Source of the DNA: a virus
Taxonomy: Duplodnaviria; Heunggongvirae; Uroviricota; Caudoviricetes
Length of the DNA stretch: 24,423 bases
Reading direction: 5' to 3' (one strand)
IMG/VR virus record: IMGVR_UViG_2531839474_000007
Coordinates: 1 to 24,423 of that record
Positions 776 to 7,850 of this stretch are shown here, piece after piece. Under the pieces are notes generated by a model. The model was not told the DNA's origin. It worked only from the letters and a program-made list of their open reading frames with translations, and did not search any database. How positions within the stretch are numbered: the first letter of the stretch is position 1; each line of letters begins with the position of its first letter. Position numbers and translations under genes: made by a program.

Positions 776-1380
776 CCTCGTTTAAAAAATATTGTTATTG
801 TTAAAGAATTCTTTTATTTTGCTATCAGGTATTTGTCTTACTTGGCTTTCTGTTCTTGGTTTAACTGATGCTATGAAAATAAGGAAGTCAAATGCGACAA
901 GAGAAATAATCCACAACCAAAGATTAATTAAAGAGCCAGTAACAGAGAATATATTTGTTAATTTGGCGATACTTATTATTAAAATAGTAACAAATGCGAT
1001 TACTGTATGTTCAAAGAAAACCCAAAAGTAATAAACTTTGTTCCAGAAAAGTTCAACGTAATGTTTGTCTTTTAACTCTTTAACTTCTGGGTAATACAGT
1101 TTACTCATTACCTTGTGAGATTCATCAGTAGTTAATTTTCTCGTAACGCCTGCAATTTTTGCTAATGGTTTAATAATTAAATGACTATCCCACATCTTCC
1201 TTATTCCAATAATTTTTGCTACATTATTATGTAGATCTAAAGCTCCACTAATTACTGACCAAAAAACTGAAGATGCAATTGGTAATATGCCAAAGGTTAA
1301 TATCCATTTAATAAATTCCTCGTAGTCTTTAACGGGGGTGAACCGCCCCGGTTTTCCTGGAGAGTGTTTTATCTGTGAAC

Positions 1381-2268
1381 TCAGGCTGCCAGATCATCGT
1401 TTCTGATGGAAGCATAATAAGCTTTTTCTGCTTCTGCCGGAGGGATATGACCCAGCCTTCCCAGCAATCGTCGATTGTTATACCAGTCCACCCACGTGAG
1501 TGTGGCCAGTTCCACTTCTGCACGGTTTTTCCAGCTCTTACGGTGTATTACCTCCGCTTTGTAAAGACCATTGATGCTCTCCGCCATCGCGTTGTCATAC
1601 GAGTCACCTGTACTCCCTGTTGATGCCAGCAGTTTTGCTTCTTTTAGTCGCTCCGTATAGGCCAGTGATACATACTGAGAACCTTTATCACTGTGATGGA
1701 CTGTGCCGGACGGCCGACGGGCCCACAACGCCTGCTCCAGTGCATCCAGCACGAATGTCGTTTCCATAGACGATGAGACTCGCCACCCCACGATACATCC
1801 GGCAAACACATCAATGATGAACGCCACATAGACGAAGCCCTGCCATGTGCTGACGTAAGTAAAATCAGCCACCCACAGCTGGTCAGGACGTTCTGCCACG
1901 AACTGACGGTTTACGCGGTCGCCTGCGGAAACGGCTTTCCGGCTGACGGTAGTACGGACCTTTTTACCCCGGAGAACACCGGCAAGTCCCATAACCGCCA
2001 TGAGGCGCGCCACTGTACATCTGGCCACCCTGATACCTTCGCGTAACAACTGGCGCCAGACTTTACGCACACCGTACACCTGATGATTTTCATCGTATAC
2101 GCGCTGTATCTCTCTCTTCAGCCAGTCATCGCGCTGAGCACGGGCACTGCGTTTATCAGGATGATGTCGCTGTTGCTGACAGTGGTAATACGTTGACGGG
2201 GCAATATGCAGTTCACTGCATACCGGTCCGACCCCGTACTGCTCACGCAGCTTATCCAGCAGCGGCAT
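1381..2268 (-). CDS. IS629 OrfB transposase (DDE/integrase catalytic region)
   Basis: 295-aa ORF identical to the copy-2 OrfB; -1 frame relative to orfA. Confidence 0.9.
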   Translation of the reverse strand: MPLLDKLREQYGVGPVCSELHIAPSTYYHCQQQRHHPDKRSARAQRDDWLKREIQRVYDENHQVYGVRKVWRQLLREGIRVARCTVARLMAVMGLAGVLRGKKVRTTVSRKAVSAGDRVNRQFVAERPDQLWVADFTYVSTWQGFVYVAFIIDVFAGCIVGWRVSSSMETTFVLDALEQALWARRPSGTVHHSDKGSQYVSLAYTERLKEAKLLASTGSTGDSYDNAMAESINGLYKAEVIHRKSWKNRAEVELATLTWVDWYNNRRLLGRLGHIPPAEAEKAYYASIRNDDLAA

Positions 2269-2594
2269 TATTTTTTCCAGAGGCGGTCGAACTCCGCCTT
2301 CGCAAAATAAGCGGAAGCCTGGCGAAGGATATCGTTACTGCGGCGCAGTTCACGATTTTCACGTTCCAGCTCTTTCAGACGCTGACGTTCAGCGGTGGTG
2401 AGTCCACCATCACCACTCCCGGTATCCCGCTCATGCTGACGAACCCACACACGCAGAGTCTCTGGTGTACAGCCAATCTTTGGGGCAATGGAACAAATTG
2501 CCGCCCATTGTGAGTCATATTCGCCCTGACTTTCCAGAACCATACGAACTGCCCGTTGACGGACCTCGGGGGAAAAACGTGTATTTTTAGTCAT
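2268..2594 (-). CDS. IS629 OrfA (HTH DNA-binding transposase subunit)
   Basis: 108-aa [22 protein letters not shown]... with C-terminal leucine-zipper-like region; ends in the A6 tract where IS3-family -1 frameshifting occurs. Confidence 0.9.
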
Positions 2595-3374
2595 CCTGTT
2601 TACCTCTTTCTCAGGGAGTTTAGTCTCCAGGATTCCCGGGGCGGTTCAGGGGGGATATACTTGGCATTAATGCCAACCAATGGCATGTAGCCATAAATGA
2701 CTAATGATAGGTAAAATATAAATGTAGTAATAAAAGTCGCCTTATGGAGCATAGGCAACATTTCATTATAACTCTTTGGTGGTTCTAACATTTTACTCTC
2801 CAAACACTCAAAAAAAAGCTAATCTTCTATAATAACGAAATTCAGCTGGCACAATTAAAGATTAATTGCCACCAATTTCTTGATTTTATAATTTTATCTA
2901 AATGTTTTTGATTAATCTAGTCCTAAAAGAAACCTACTGCATAAATATTTATGCTGATGACCCACTCCCTGTTCGTTAACACATAGCAACGTTAGTAATG
3001 CATCCTAAGTGATCAATATTTTTGCTAGCTTCATCTGCTCGCTCAAAGGGAACTATAATGTTGGCTTGCGTGTGACTTGGCATGTTTAAAGAAGTGCTGG
3101 TGGTGACTGGTTGCTGTTTTCCATTTCCACAGAACAAAATCATAGAAACTATACCCAGTAGTTGTATTGAATCACTGACGAGACAGCCTCATATTTATCA
3201 GGACTGGTGTACGTCCAATACAGGAGGTTGTGGTGCTGGTTCTCAAATGTGCGCTGGCTATTGCTGCTGTAATGGCAATTTATTGTCTTGCTGTTGTTCT
3301 TATGGATCACCTTTCTGATTGATTTCATATTGGCGAGGTAACGGTAGTTAAGTAGAATTGCTGCGGGTGCTTGA

Positions 3375-3412
3375 GGCTATCTGCCTCGGGCATCAACACC
3401 AAAGGCAGATAG
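3375..3412 (+). promoter_or_regulatory. perfect 10-bp inverted repeat (CTATCTGCCT ... AGGCAGATAG) in the hok/mok leader; presumed mRNA structural element
   Basis: Hairpin read directly; no T-run on either strand so not an obvious terminator; lies where hok mRNA 5' regulatory structures and the antisense sok gene are expected. Confidence 0.35.
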
Positions 3413-3476
3413 AGAAAAGCCCCAGTTAACATTACGCGTCCGGCAAGACGCTTAACATTAATCTGAGGCCATATCT

Positions 3477-3689
3477 ATGCTCTACACACGTAGGTTAGCC
3501 TCTTACGTGCCGAAAGGCAAGGAGAAGCAGGCTATGAAGCAGCAAAAGGCGATGTTAATCGCCCTGATCGTCATCTGTTTAACCGTCATAGTGACGGCAC
3601 TGGTAACGAGGAAAGACCTCTGCGAGGTACGAATCCGAACCGGCCAGACGGAGGTCGCTGTCTTCACAGCTTACGAATCTGAGGAGTAA
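3477..3689 (+). CDS. mok: mok-like reading frame (in-frame N-terminal extension overlapping hok)
   Basis: 70-aa ORF with GAGG Shine-Dalgarno 8 nt upstream of ATG 3477; contains the complete Hok frame. Confidence 0.45.
   Translation: MLYTRRLASYVPKGKEKQAMKQQKAMLIALIVICLTVIVTALVTRKDLCEVRIRTGQTEVAVFTAYESEE
3534..3689 (+). CDS. hok: Hok/Gef-family type I toxin (HokD/RelF-like small membrane toxin)
   Basis: 51-aa MKQQKAMLIALIVICLTVIVTALVTRKDLCEVRIRTGQTEVAVFTAYESEE; GGAG Shine-Dalgarno 9 nt upstream; single transmembrane helix plus conserved Cys; near-identical to my recollection of HokD. Confidence 0.85.
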   Translation: MKQQKAMLIALIVICLTVIVTALVTRKDLCEVRIRTGQTEVAVFTAYESEE

Positions 3690-5578: not shown

Positions 5579-5938
5579 ATGCGTATAGAGTTTGTTTTGC
5601 CTTACCCGCCAACGGTGAACACCTACTGGCGGCGTCGTGGCAGCACATATTTTGTATCAAAAGTCGGTGAGCGTTATCGCCGTGATGTGGCGCTTATTGT
5701 TCGCCAGCAGCAACTGAAATTAAACCTGTCCGGAAGGCTGGCAATAAAAATTATTGCAGAGCCACCGGATAAGCGCCGTCGTGACCTGGACAATATCCTG
5801 AAGGCACCACTGGATGCACTGACGCATGCGGGGCTGCTCATAGACGACGAGCAGTTTGATGAAATTAATATTGTGCGCGGTCAGCTTGTTCCTAGTGGGC
5901 GGTTGGGGATAAAAATCACAGAACTGGGGTGCGCATGA
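5579..5938 (+). CDS. rusA: RusA-family Holliday junction resolvase
   Basis: 119 aa; the acidic motif DKRRRDLDN and overall similarity to E. coli RusA; typical lambdoid nin-region position just upstream of Q. Confidence 0.85.
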   Translation: MRIEFVLPYPPTVNTYWRRRGSTYFVSKVGERYRRDVALIVRQQQLKLNLSGRLAIKIIAEPPDKRRRDLDNILKAPLDALTHAGLLIDDEQFDEINIVRGQLVPSGRLGIKITELGCA

Positions 5939-6624
5939 ATAACCAGTATTTACAGTTTGTGCGTGAGCAGCTCATTATCGCCACCGCTGATTTGAGTGGG
6001 GCAACAAAAGGTCAGCTTGAAGCCTGGCAGGAGAATGCCATGTTCGATACAGGGCGTTACAGGCGTAAAAAAATCCGGTACCGCGATGAAGTGACTGGAA
6101 AAATGATAACGCGGGATAATCCACCAATCCCGGGAAAGCAATCGCTGGCGAAGGGGACGTCAATTCCTCTGGTCAGTCCGATTGAGTTTTCGACATCATC
6201 GTGGCGGCGGGCTGTTCTGTCTCTTGAAGAACATCATAAAGCCTGGTTGTTGTGGTGTTACAGCGGGAGTATTTGTTGGGAATATCAGATCGCGATAACA
6301 CAGTGGGCGTGGAATGAATTTAATACTCAATCCGGTACCAGAAAAATTGCAGGGAAAACGCAGGAACGCCTGAAAAAATTAATCTGGCTGGCGGCGCAGG
6401 CAGTAAAAGCAGAACTTTTTGGTGGGGAAGGTTATGAATACAAGGAGCTGGCATTACTGGTGGGAGTGACAACTAAAAACTGGTCCAAAACATTTACTCG
6501 TCACTGGGTTGCAATGAAACACATTTTTCACCGACTGGATAGTGAGGCTTTATTGTTTGTAATGAGAACGCGTTCAAAACAAAAGGCGGCATTTTCAAAG
6601 CAAAGTGTTGCAAAAGTAGATTGA
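5935..6624 (+). CDS. putative late-gene antiterminator Q (assigned by position)
   Basis: ATG 5935 overlaps the rusA stop (ATGA coupling); 229 aa; immediately followed by a tR'-like terminator and the tRNA cluster; no lambda-Q zinc-finger motif recognised. Confidence 0.45.
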   Translation: MNNQYLQFVREQLIIATADLSGATKGQLEAWQENAMFDTGRYRRKKIRYRDEVTGKMITRDNPPIPGKQSLAKGTSIPLVSPIEFSTSSWRRAVLSLEEHHKAWLLWCYSGSICWEYQIAITQWAWNEFNTQSGTRKIAGKTQERLKKLIWLAAQAVKAELFGGEGYEYKELALLVGVTTKNWSKTFTRHWVAMKHIFHRLDSEALLFVMRTRSKQKAAFSKQSVAKVD

Positions 6625-6834: not shown

Positions 6835-6910
6835 GGCCCTTTAGCTCAGTGGTGAGAGCGAGCGACTCATAATCGCCAGGCCGCTGGTTCAAATCCAGCA
6901 AGGGCCACCA
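6835..6910 (+). tRNA. tRNA-Ile2 (anticodon CAU, ileX/ileZ-like; lysidine-type) or tRNA-Met
   Basis: 76-nt cloverleaf folded by hand: acceptor GGCCCTT/AAGGGCC, D arm GCTC..GAGC, anticodon loop CTCATAA, T loop TTCAAAT, 3' CCA encoded; close to E. coli ileX as recalled. Confidence 0.85.
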
Positions 6911-6917
6911 TCACATA

Positions 6918-6994
6918 CCGCCATTAGCTCATCGGGATAGAACGCCAGCCTTCGAAGCTGGTTTCGCGGGGTTCGAGTCTCCGATGGCGGTCCA
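6918..6994 (+). tRNA. tRNA-Arg, anticodon UCG as read
   Basis: 77-nt cloverleaf: acceptor CCGCCAT/ATGGCGG, anticodon stem CCAGC/GCTGG with loop CTTCGAA, T arm CGGGG-TTCGAGT-CTCCG, CCA encoded; one D-stem mismatch. Confidence 0.8.
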
Positions 6995-7007
6995 TTATCG
7001 GTATTCT

Positions 7008-7084
7008 GCGTTTTTAGCTCAGCCGGACAGAGCAATTGCCTTCTAAGCAATCGGTCACTGGTTCGAACCCAGTACAACGCACCA
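7008..7084 (+). tRNA. tRNA-Arg, anticodon UCU (argU-like, reads AGA/AGG)
   Basis: 77-nt cloverleaf: anticodon stem ATTGC/GCAAT with loop CTTCTAA, T arm ACTGG-TTCGAAC-CCAGT, CCA encoded; one acceptor-stem mismatch. Confidence 0.8.
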
Positions 7085-7253
7085 CACTTATTTTCCCTCG
7101 CTCGCTTTTGCGGACCTTTTTTGTATCCGCACCACGCCCGGCGCATACCAACCACAGAGCCTTTCGGGGGGAGCTTATGGAGTGGTCAGTGTGACTTTCT
7201 CTGTGGGCAGATCGCTCCCGGGCGTTGGCTCACCCACCCAAAGGAACGTCACG

Positions 7254-7686
7254 ATGTTTGGTATTTTTGGTAAAAAAAGCCCGCAGAGCGGCAACGGAAA
7301 TTAAAAAGTTTGAAAAACGCGATCTGGCACAGGTGGTGATTAACGCCGCATACCTGGTGGCCTGTGCAGATGGTGAATGTGAGGCTTCCTAGAAAGCGAA
7401 GATCGAACAGGTACTGCGTAATCAGCCTGCGCTGTACGCGTTTACGTCAGAAATTAATGCGATTAGCGCAACCATTATCGGTCAGCTGGATACGAACTTT
7501 AAAACTGGTCGTCGTGCGGCGTTACGTGAGATCGAGGATGTGAAACACGATACGCGTGAAGCGGAAGATGTGCTGGATGTGGCGGTGGCCATTGCGGAGG
7601 CAGACGGCGAAATTGAGCCGGAAGAGCGCAAGGTGCTGGAAGAGATTGCCGGTGTTCTGGGTCTTCGTCTGGAGAATTACCTGTGA
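7254..7686 (+). pseudogene. TerB-like (tellurite-resistance TerB-family) gene inactivated by a frameshift and an in-frame amber codon
   Basis: ATG 7254 with AAGGA 8 nt upstream. The frame stops after 16 codons; the +1 frame entered at the A7 tract (7272..7278) continues through two ADG-x5-E type repeats (ACADGECEAS, AEADGEIEPEERKVLEEIAGVLGL) but holds TAG at 7390..7392 before ending at TGA 7684..7686. Confidence 0.55.
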
Positions 7687-7850
7687 CGGTAAAACTGCGC
7701 CTGACTGTGGCTGCACTCCTGCTGTTTCTGGTGGTGATGGTGGATTTCACCAGCAGAATCATGTCGGTGCTGGCGGATGGGGTGCTGGTCTGCGGCATTA
7801 TGGTATTGCTGTGGCCGGTGATAAAAAGAAACAGCCTGCATAATGCTTGA
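7683..7850 (+). CDS. small hydrophobic protein (about 55 aa) translationally coupled to the TerB-like gene
   Basis: GTG 7683 overlaps the upstream TGA (GTGA); two hydrophobic segments (VAALLLFLVVMV, VLVCGIMVLLWPV); alternative ATG starts at 7737 and 7761; below the ORF-track size cutoff. Confidence 0.3.
   Translation: MTVKLRLTVAALLLFLVVMVDFTSRIMSVLADGVLVCGIMVLLWPVIKRNSLHNA

What the first reader, a model, noticed from the sequence alone, without database searches (positions are those of the whole stretch)
7254..7686. TerB-like gene carries two independent inactivating lesions
From a well-placed ATG and Shine-Dalgarno the frame terminates after 16 codons. Shifting +1 at the A7 tract (7272..7278) restores a long frame containing two TerB-like ADG-x5-E repeats, but that frame holds an in-frame TAG at 7390..7392 where the repeat consensus expects a sense codon. 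Two lesions point to decay rather than programmed recoding, though A-tract slippage could give low-level frame restoration of the first lesion.
Basis: seen in the sequence. Interest (0 to 1): 0.4.

Follow-up and report, generated by a model that had tools for sequence, protein, structure and literature searches.

The report
Decayed prophage tciA (TerB) pseudogene
This is an ordinary broken copy of a small phage accessory gene (tciA, TerB family) in an E. coli O157:H7 prophage, disabled by a one-base insertion and a stop codon that both recur in hundreds of other sequenced genomes.

Summary
ATG 7254 opens a frame that stops after 16 codons. A7 at 7272-7278 is a one-base insertion compared with intact homologs, which have A6. 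TAG 7390-7392 replaces GAG, the invariant Glu of the first ADG-x5-E motif.

The gene is tciA, a TerB-family (PF05099) accessory gene. It lies between the Q-tRNA cluster and tciB/nanS-p of a lambdoid prophage that is 100% identical to E. coli O157:H7 genomes. RefSeq already flags this copy as a pseudogene ("internal stop").

Neither lesion is an assembly error. In 5426 complete E. coli genomes:
- A7 on this haplotype occurs in 875 copies, against 8 copies with A6.
- TAG occurs in 962 of about 2722 tciA copies.
- The exact A7+TAG haplotype occurs in 121 copies in 117 genomes.

A7 came first: 509 copies have A7 with GAG. All ten TAG loci examined, this window included, also have a damaged 5' end, either A7 or a deleted start. 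In this lineage TAG arrived together with a linked silent change, which suggests a short gene-conversion patch from another prophage copy.

I found no recoding signals: no suppressor tRNA, no stimulatory RNA structure, and homologs are single 141-148 aa ORFs.

One nuance: PGAP hides the frameshift by starting the gene at TTG 7258, so A7-only copies are annotated as intact.

Verdict: pseudogene decay, of low interest.

The parts
7240..7247 (+). Shine-Dalgarno region (AAAGGAAC) of tciA
   Evidence: Read from the sequence. The AGGA core at 7242-7245 lies 8 nt before ATG 7254 and 12 nt before TTG 7258. It is identical in the intact homolog JLK-2012.
7254..7304 (+). Residual native-start ORF: ATG, 16 codons (MFGIFGKKSPQSGNGN), TAA
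   Evidence: The first 8 residues, MFGIFGKK, equal the conserved N-terminus of intact TciA proteins.
7272..7278 (+). Lesion 1: A7 tract, a one-base insertion relative to A6 in intact genes
   Evidence: Alignment with JLK-2012 and with the intact A6 alleles L015-L018. On the same 71-nt haplotype, A7 is found in 875 copies in 555 genomes and A6 in 8 copies in 8 genomes.
7258..7392 (+). N-terminal fragment of the TerB frame, from the alternative TTG start used by PGAP to the amber codon (44 sense codons)
Evidence: Translation.
7390..7392 (+). Lesion 2: TAG replacing GAG (Glu46, the motif Glu of the first ADG-x5-E)
   Evidence: E46 is Glu in 16 of 16 homologs. The TAG allele occurs in 962 copies in 577 genomes. 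The silent change at 7386 (GCA to GCT) is linked to it.
7393..7686 (+). C-terminal 97 codons of tciA, still open, holding the second ADG-x5-E motif, ending at TGA 7684-7686
   Evidence: Translation. The best Pfam TerB stretch covers residues 98-138. This part is nearly invariant across copies.
7683..7850 (+). tciB (DUF3927, 55 aa), intact. Its GTG overlaps the tciA stop, and it has its own GGAG at 7671-7674.
   Evidence: Pfam PF13064, 60.4 bits. Annotated intact in all related loci examined.
6835..7084 (+). Upstream phage tRNA cluster (CAU read as Ile2/Met, Arg-UCG, Arg-UCU). None is a suppressor.
   Evidence: ARAGORN, Rfam and the PGAP tRNA-Ile/Arg/Arg annotation.

Best explanation
The interval is a dead copy of tciA. 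This is a 143-aa TerB-family accessory ('moron') gene that lambdoid and P1-like phages carry just downstream of the Q antiterminator and phage tRNAs, paired with the small membrane-protein gene tciB.

Steps shown here:
1. An A6 to A7 insertion in codons 7-8 uncouples the native ATG and Shine-Dalgarno from the TerB frame. Ribosomes starting at the ATG make a 16-residue peptide.
2. An amber codon replaces the invariant Glu46. Any product that reaches the TerB frame would stop after about 45 residues and lose two thirds of the domain, including the second ADG-x5-E motif.
3. A7 is the older and commoner lesion. TAG is found only on copies whose 5' end is already damaged.

Steps inferred:
4. After A7, or after a 5' deletion, removed selection, the amber allele was neutral. 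It spread among the paralogous prophage copies of enterohaemorrhagic E. coli by recombination. It entered this particular prophage as a short gene-conversion patch, marked by the two linked changes at 7386 and 7390.
5. tciB and the downstream late genes keep their own signals and are unaffected.
For: - Lesions versus intact homologs.
- TerB membership of the repaired product.
- Full-length single-ORF homologs, including P1 TciA at 40-51% identity over residues 1-143.
- RefSeq/PGAP already marks the identical locus as a pseudogene ('internal stop').
- Real alleles, not sequencing errors. A7: 875 copies in 555 genomes. TAG: 962 copies in 577 genomes. Exact A7+TAG haplotype: 121 copies in 117 genomes.
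- Order of events. A7+GAG occurs in 509 copies in 287 genomes including EDL933. All ten TAG loci examined carry A7 or a replaced 5' end. These are the window (identical to L001), L009-L014, L021 and L022.
- The counts balance without needing any TAG on an intact 5' end. The 962 TAG copies are approximately 610 5'-truncated, plus 121, plus about 231 of the 245 remaining A7 copies.
- Gene conversion. The orthologous locus in O157:H7 OK1 differs from the window at only two positions of 7225-7700, namely 7386 and 7390. Both are shared with TAG copies in other prophage backbones.
- Relaxed constraint. pN/pS is 0.03-0.11 between diverged alleles and 0.3-0.9 within the A7 clade. Fisher p = 7e-4, on very small counts.
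- No recoding apparatus. The adjacent tRNAs have anticodons CAU, UCG and UCU. The 82 nt after the A tract fold no better than shuffles, z = 0.13.
Against: - The A7-only allele has kept an otherwise open 142-aa frame from TTG 7258 in at least 509 copies, and PGAP calls those intact. A7 may therefore reduce expression rather than abolish it.
- The within-clade pN/pS rests on 6-8 substitutions, and some of those may come from recombination rather than mutation.
- Two draft assemblies carry TGG (Trp) at the TAG position on an A7 background (P0004/L003 and P0012). This could be read as selection to reopen the frame. However, Trp replaces an invariant Glu, and no TGG copy exists in the complete genomes.
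- No expression data were available.
- The allele counts come from exact-match BLAST thresholds and miss copies with extra SNPs.
Confidence: 0.88

Rival explanations
1. Sequencing or assembly artefact: the true sequence has A6 and a sense codon, and the gene is intact.
For: Homopolymer length errors are common in long-read assemblies. Eight genomes do show A6 on the same haplotype, one of them a laboratory derivative of O157:H7 strain 86-24.
Against: The same A7 is present in 875 copies in 555 independently assembled complete genomes. The TAG is a substitution, not a homopolymer error, and it is present in 962 copies. The exact combined haplotype is in 117 genomes. PGAP reports the internal stop in many records.
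Confidence: 0.01
2. Programmed recoding: full-length TciA is made by +1 ribosomal or transcriptional slippage on the A7 tract combined with amber readthrough.
For: AAA AAA A allows tRNA-Lys to re-pair in the +1 frame. The A7 allele is stable and abundant. Three phage tRNA genes lie immediately upstream.
Against: - Homologs across genera are single uninterrupted ORFs with A6 or unrelated codons at this place.
- There is no stimulatory structure (z = 0.13). No stop or rare codon follows the tract; the next 0-frame codon is AGC.
- None of the adjacent tRNAs has a CUA anticodon.
- TAG replaces an invariant Glu, and it is absent from most A7 copies, so the two signals are not a conserved pair.
- Seven A residues are, from general knowledge, too few for efficient transcriptional slippage.
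Confidence: 0.02
3. The A7 allele is a working N-terminal variant, started at TTG 7258 or 7267 to give MVFLVKK.... Only the TAG is inactivating, so this copy has one effective lesion, recently acquired.
For: - The TTG is in frame, 12 nt from the Shine-Dalgarno core.
- PGAP annotates such copies as intact proteins WP_001303558.1 and WP_001303509.1.
- At least 509 copies keep the frame open.
- One A7 haplotype carries an in-frame 6-nt insertion (L006-L008).
Against: - The strong ATG, at optimal spacing 4 nt upstream in another frame, should capture most initiations.
- The N-terminus MFG.F.KK is conserved across genera (G3 nearly invariant, K7 invariant) and would be lost.
- TAG alleles accumulate specifically on A7 or 5'-deleted backgrounds.
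- pN/pS is raised within the A7 clade.
- A7 to A6 reversion, an easy mutation, has not spread: 8 copies against 875.
Confidence: 0.07
4. Phase-variable contingency gene: the A tract switches between A6 (on) and A7 (off) at high frequency.
For: There is a homopolymer within the first 10 codons. Both A6 and A7 exist on the same haplotype. A nearby poly-G tract (7166-7171) also varies in length between copies.
Against: The A7:A6 ratio is 875:8, and most A6 copies lie on different phage backbones and TciA protein alleles (L015, L016 and L018). A 7-nt tract is short for a contingency locus. The fixed TAG in a third of copies is incompatible with a maintained switch.
Confidence: 0.02

Closest known systems
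TciA of Escherichia phage JLK-2012 (AFB75444.1) and the tciA-tciB pair of lambdoid prophages
   Same: The repaired product is 96.5% identical over all 143 residues. The gene order is the same: Q, three tRNAs, tciA, tciB overlapping by GTGA, then the yjhS/nanS-p esterase and the holin.
   Different: JLK-2012 has A6 and GAG, so the gene is intact. Its tRNAs are Asn/Thr/Gly rather than Ile/Arg/Arg.
[quoted passage not shown]
   Same: Homologous over residues 1-143 at 40-51% identity (records OP279344.1 and AF234173.1). P1 TciA is described as TerB-like, and the tciABC region as variable and often lost in P1-like plasmids (PMC9603915).
   Different: P1 has a third gene, tciC, and a different genomic setting. 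No function has been demonstrated experimentally for either. The copy here is inactivated.
TerB of the terZABCDE tellurite-resistance operon (Pfam PF05099)
   Same: It has the two ADG-x5-E acidic motifs.
   Different: It is a stand-alone phage gene with no terC/terD/terZ neighbours in the window. Membership here concerns the domain only, not the ter system.
The same locus in RefSeq O157:H7 genomes (e.g. ECpv15279_RS14160 in NZ_AP018488.1)
   Same: 100% identical DNA, already annotated as 'tellurite resistance TerB family protein', pseudogene, 'internal stop'.
   Different: PGAP starts it at TTG 7258 and so does not record the frameshift relative to the native ATG.

Membership tests
TerB domain family (Pfam PF05099) | Sequence match above the curated gathering score | tested here: met
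   The repaired 143-aa translation scores 45.7 bits against a cutoff of 24.4, E = 9.5e-12. Database relatives all carry PF05099.
TerB domain family (Pfam PF05099) | Two acidic ADG-x5-E type motifs | tested here: met
   ADGECEAS[E46 replaced by a stop] and ADGEIEPEE are read in the translation. D39, D117, G118 and E124 are invariant, and E46 is Glu in 16 of 16 homologs. The first motif is destroyed by the TAG.
Phage tciA-tciB module | Full-length homology to annotated TciA, with a DUF3927 tciB immediately downstream | tested here: met
   JLK-2012 TciA 96.5% and P1 TciA 40-51% identity over residues 1-143. tciB at 7683-7850 hits PF13064 at 60.4 bits. Same order as JLK-2012.
Pseudogene (unitary decay of a paralogous prophage gene) | ORF-disrupting differences from intact close homologs | tested here: met
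   A6 to A7 and GAG to TAG relative to JLK-2012 and to L015-L018.
Pseudogene (unitary decay of a paralogous prophage gene) | Lesions are real, that is, reproduced in independent assemblies | tested here: met
   121 exact copies in 117 genomes. 875 A7 copies and 962 TAG copies.
Pseudogene (unitary decay of a paralogous prophage gene) | Relaxed selective constraint after the first lesion | tested here: inconclusive
   pN/pS is 0.3-0.9 within the A7 clade against 0.03-0.11 elsewhere, Fisher p = 7e-4. This rests on only 6-8 substitutions, and recombination confounds it. TAG being restricted to 5'-damaged copies points the same way.
Programmed +1 ribosomal frameshifting (prfB-type) | Shift site conserved in homologs, with the product requiring the shift | tested here: not met
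   Homologs are single ORFs with A6 or different codons.
Programmed +1 ribosomal frameshifting (prfB-type) | Stimulators: slow or stop codon in the A site, upstream SD-like element, or downstream structure | tested here: not met
   The next 0-frame codon is AGC. The downstream 82 nt have a fold z-score of 0.13.
Stop-codon readthrough by a phage suppressor tRNA | A tRNA with a CUA anticodon in the element | tested here: not met
   There are only three tRNAs in the window, with anticodons CAU, UCG and UCU. Rfam finds no others.
Phase-variable contingency locus | Tract length polymorphic among closely related copies | tested here: not met
   A7 875 against A6 8 on the same 71-nt haplotype. A8 was not searched in the genome collection.

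The most novel reading that the evidence does not exclude
The A7 allele is not dead. It is a low-expression form of tciA, translated from TTG 7258 or by occasional +1 slippage on the A run, that O157:H7 has retained in two prophages. On this reading the amber allele, which spreads by gene conversion among paralogous prophages, would be an adaptive silencing of a costly phage gene rather than neutral decay.
Probability: 0.07. Interest if true: 0.3.

Novelty: already known. Interest (0 to 1): 0.1.

Why it matters
It matters little for biology. This is one more decaying accessory gene in the highly redundant lambdoid prophages of enterohaemorrhagic E. coli, and RefSeq already flags it.

Two modest practical points follow:
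1. At least 509 A7-only copies in complete genomes, including EDL933, are annotated as intact TerB-family proteins only because the annotation pipeline picks a TTG 4 nt after the native ATG. They are probably frameshifted pseudogenes too.
2. The locus illustrates how a nonsense allele can move between prophage paralogues by short-patch recombination once selection on the gene is lost. This matters when prophage SNPs are used for strain typing.

Tried and rejected
- A 41-mer megablast query centred on the A tract, meant to count A6 against A7 by forcing every seed across the tract, failed. The low-complexity filter masks the tract. I replaced it with longer queries plus an E-value cutoff that admits only exact matches, calibrated locally.
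- The exact haplotype of L006 (A7 + GAG + 6-nt in-frame insertion) has no match in complete genomes, so that allele is rare.
- A TGG 'revertant' query found nothing in complete genomes. The TGG alleles are singletons in draft assemblies, so I rejected them as evidence of selection to restore the frame.
- I looked for a suppressor tRNA and for a frameshift-stimulating structure. There is none.
- The P1 genome paper (PMC523184) is not held. The origin of the tci name is therefore cited through PMC9603915.
- The first literature search on tciA/tciB returned mostly Trypanosoma TcIa/TcIb papers.
- I judged structure prediction and the representative-protein search unnecessary for a pseudogene call and did not run them.

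Full report
**Observation.**
- An AGGA Shine-Dalgarno core at 7242-7245 is followed after 8 nt by ATG 7254.
- That frame reads MFGIFGKKSPQSGNGN and ends at TAA 7302-7304.
- The A run is 7272-7278 (A7).
- The frame one base further on (phase of 7258) runs to TGA 7684-7686, with a single in-frame TAG at 7390-7392.
- If one A is removed and the TAG is read as a sense codon, the 143-aa product passes the Pfam TerB threshold (PF05099, 45.7 bits against 24.4).
- The product shows the two ADG-x5-E motifs. The TAG falls exactly on the Glu of the first motif.

**Setting.** The window is a lambdoid prophage of E. coli O157:H7. The 801 nt around the finding are 100% identical to several complete O157:H7 chromosomes.

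The gene order is as follows:
- DUF968
- RusA
- antiterminator Q (5929-6624)
- three tRNAs (6835-7084)
- the TerB gene
- a 55-aa DUF3927 gene (7683-7850), whose GTG overlaps the TerB stop
- a DUF1737/SASA esterase of the nanS-p type (8165-10015)
- the lysis genes

Phage JLK-2012 has the same arrangement, and its two genes are named tciA and tciB. [quoted passage not shown] P1 TciA aligns with the repaired protein over residues 1-143 at 40-51% identity.

**Comparison with intact homologs.** JLK-2012 tciA is a single 143-codon ORF with A6 and GAG at the two positions. Protein searches return many full-length 141-148 aa relatives from Escherichia, Klebsiella, Salmonella, Serratia and Pantoea and from Erwinia phages. 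The tblastn search of phage records adds full-length matches in Vibrio and Pseudomonas phages. In an alignment of 16 diverse homologs:
- the N-terminus MFG.F.KK is conserved;
- residue 46 is always Glu.

So the native start is the ATG at 7254, the A tract lies in codons 7-8, and both differences are disruptions of an otherwise conserved single ORF.

**Are the lesions real?** I counted alleles in 5426 complete E. coli genomes using megablast queries. Either every seed had to span the variant, or the E-value cutoff admitted only exact matches. Both designs were calibrated locally.

| Allele or class | Copies | Genomes |
|---|---|---|
| Conserved 3' part of tciA (total copies) | 2722 | 805 |
| TAG allele | 962 | 577 |
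| A7 on the window's 71-nt haplotype | 875 | 555 |
| A6 on the same haplotype | 8 | 8 |
| Exact 187-nt A7+TAG haplotype of the window | 121 | 117 |
| Exact A7+GAG haplotype (L019 type) | 509 | 287 |
| 5'-truncated class | 610 | 478 |

- The TAG allele occurs in serotypes O157:H7, O145:H28, O111:H8 and O103:H2 and in non-STEC isolates.
- The four A6 copies that I fetched are annotated as intact 143-aa genes.

The lesions are therefore alleles circulating in the population and not assembly errors. PGAP marks the identical locus as a pseudogene with 'internal stop'.

**Order and origin of the lesions.**
- A7 with GAG is the commonest state of this haplotype: 509 copies in 287 genomes, including EDL933.
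- A third class of copies has had the first 50 or so nucleotides of the gene, including the start codon and the A tract, replaced by unrelated sequence. All three sampled members carry TAG.
- Every TAG locus I examined has either A7 or this 5' replacement. The ten loci are the window (identical to L001), L009-L014, L021 and L022.
- The counts balance without any TAG on an intact 5' end. The 962 TAG copies are approximately 610 truncated, plus 121, plus about 231 of the remaining 245 A7 copies.
- The orthologous locus of O157:H7 strain OK1 differs from the window at only two positions within 7225-7700. These are 7386 (GCA against GCT, silent) and 7390 (GAG against TAG). Both window states are shared with the TAG copies on other prophage backbones.

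Two linked changes 4 nt apart that match a pre-existing allele are best explained by a short gene-conversion patch between paralogous prophages. This last step is inference.

**Is A7 itself inactivating?** PGAP avoids the frameshift by starting at TTG 7258, which is in the long frame. It therefore annotates A7+GAG copies as intact 142-aa proteins. I think this is an annotation convenience, for five reasons:
1. The ATG sits at ideal spacing from the Shine-Dalgarno sequence, only 4 nt upstream of the TTG, and would dominate initiation. This rests on established knowledge of initiation and was not tested here.
2. The conserved N-terminus would be replaced.
3. Nonsense alleles accumulate on A7 backgrounds.
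4. pN/pS is 0.03-0.11 between diverged alleles but 0.3-0.9 inside the A7 clade. Fisher p = 7e-4, on very few substitutions and with recombination as a confounder.
5. The easy A7 to A6 reversion has not spread: 8 copies against 875.

Residual expression cannot be excluded without experiments.

**Recoding rivals.**
- No tRNA in the window has a CUA anticodon.
- The 82 nt after the A tract fold no better than shuffled sequence (z = 0.13).
- The 0-frame codon after the tract is an ordinary AGC.
- Homologs need neither a shift nor a readthrough.
- Two draft assemblies have TGG at the amber position on an A7 background. Trp would replace an invariant Glu, and no such copy exists among complete genomes. 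These look like neutral changes in a dead gene.
- Phase variation is unsupported by the 875:8 ratio.

**Conclusion.** The locus is a tciA (TerB-family) pseudogene in an O157:H7 lambdoid prophage and is already flagged in RefSeq. It is one instance of widespread erosion of this gene in E. coli prophages: at least 1485 of about 2722 copies have a damaged 5' end, and 962 carry the amber codon. tciB remains intact. Novelty: already known. Interest: low.

Noticed in passing
window 1339-2648 (-) and 10025-11334 (+): Two 100% identical 1310-bp IS3-family insertion sequences (IS629-like; each has a 108-aa and a 295-aa ORF and an Rfam ALIL frameshift pseudoknot). They lie in inverted orientation and bracket the hok/sok-DUF968-rusA-Q-tRNA-tciAB-esterase segment. 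One sits between the esterase and the holin. An inversion of the 7.4-kb segment by IS recombination is conceivable.
   Followed up: partly
window 7855-8027 (+), terminator-like 8052-8070: Rfam STnc100 sRNA match (100.8 bits against 47) immediately downstream of tciB and upstream of the esterase, followed by a GC hairpin and a T run. A 2026 preprint relates STnc100 to the prophage PasD sRNAs and notes TerB genes as conserved neighbours of PasA/PasC.
   Followed up: partly
window 7258-7686 and loci L019, L020: PGAP annotates A7+GAG copies (at least 509 in complete genomes, including EDL933) as intact TerB-family proteins, starting at TTG 7258 (WP_001303558.1, WP_001303509.1). Relative to the conserved native ATG, these are frameshifted and probably mis-annotated pseudogenes.
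   Followed up: yes
L010, L012, L014 (junction equivalent to about window 7305): A separate class of tciA copies (610 in 478 complete genomes) has the start codon and first 50 or so nucleotides replaced by unrelated sequence. It lies downstream of a different, 822-bp antiterminator gene with no tRNAs. All three sampled copies also carry the TAG.
   Followed up: partly
window 7166-7171: The poly-G tract between the tRNA cluster and tciA is G6 here but about G13-G14 in related loci L004 and L011 (alignment). This is a length-variable homopolymer in the tciA upstream region.
   Followed up: no
window 3365-3539 (+): Rfam sok antitoxin RNA match (114 bits), indicating a hok/sok-type toxin-antitoxin locus in the prophage early region. 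A HOK_GEF gene is called at the matching place in L006.
   Followed up: no
window 6835-6910: ARAGORN calls this tRNA Met (CAU), while PGAP annotates the identical gene as tRNA-Ile, that is, the lysidine-modified Ile2 type typical of the ileZ-argN-argO cluster of Stx-like phages.
   Followed up: no
L003 (GCA_023642445.1) and protein P0012: Two draft assemblies carry TGG (Trp) at the amber position on an A7 background, one step from TAG. None is found in complete genomes.
   Followed up: yes
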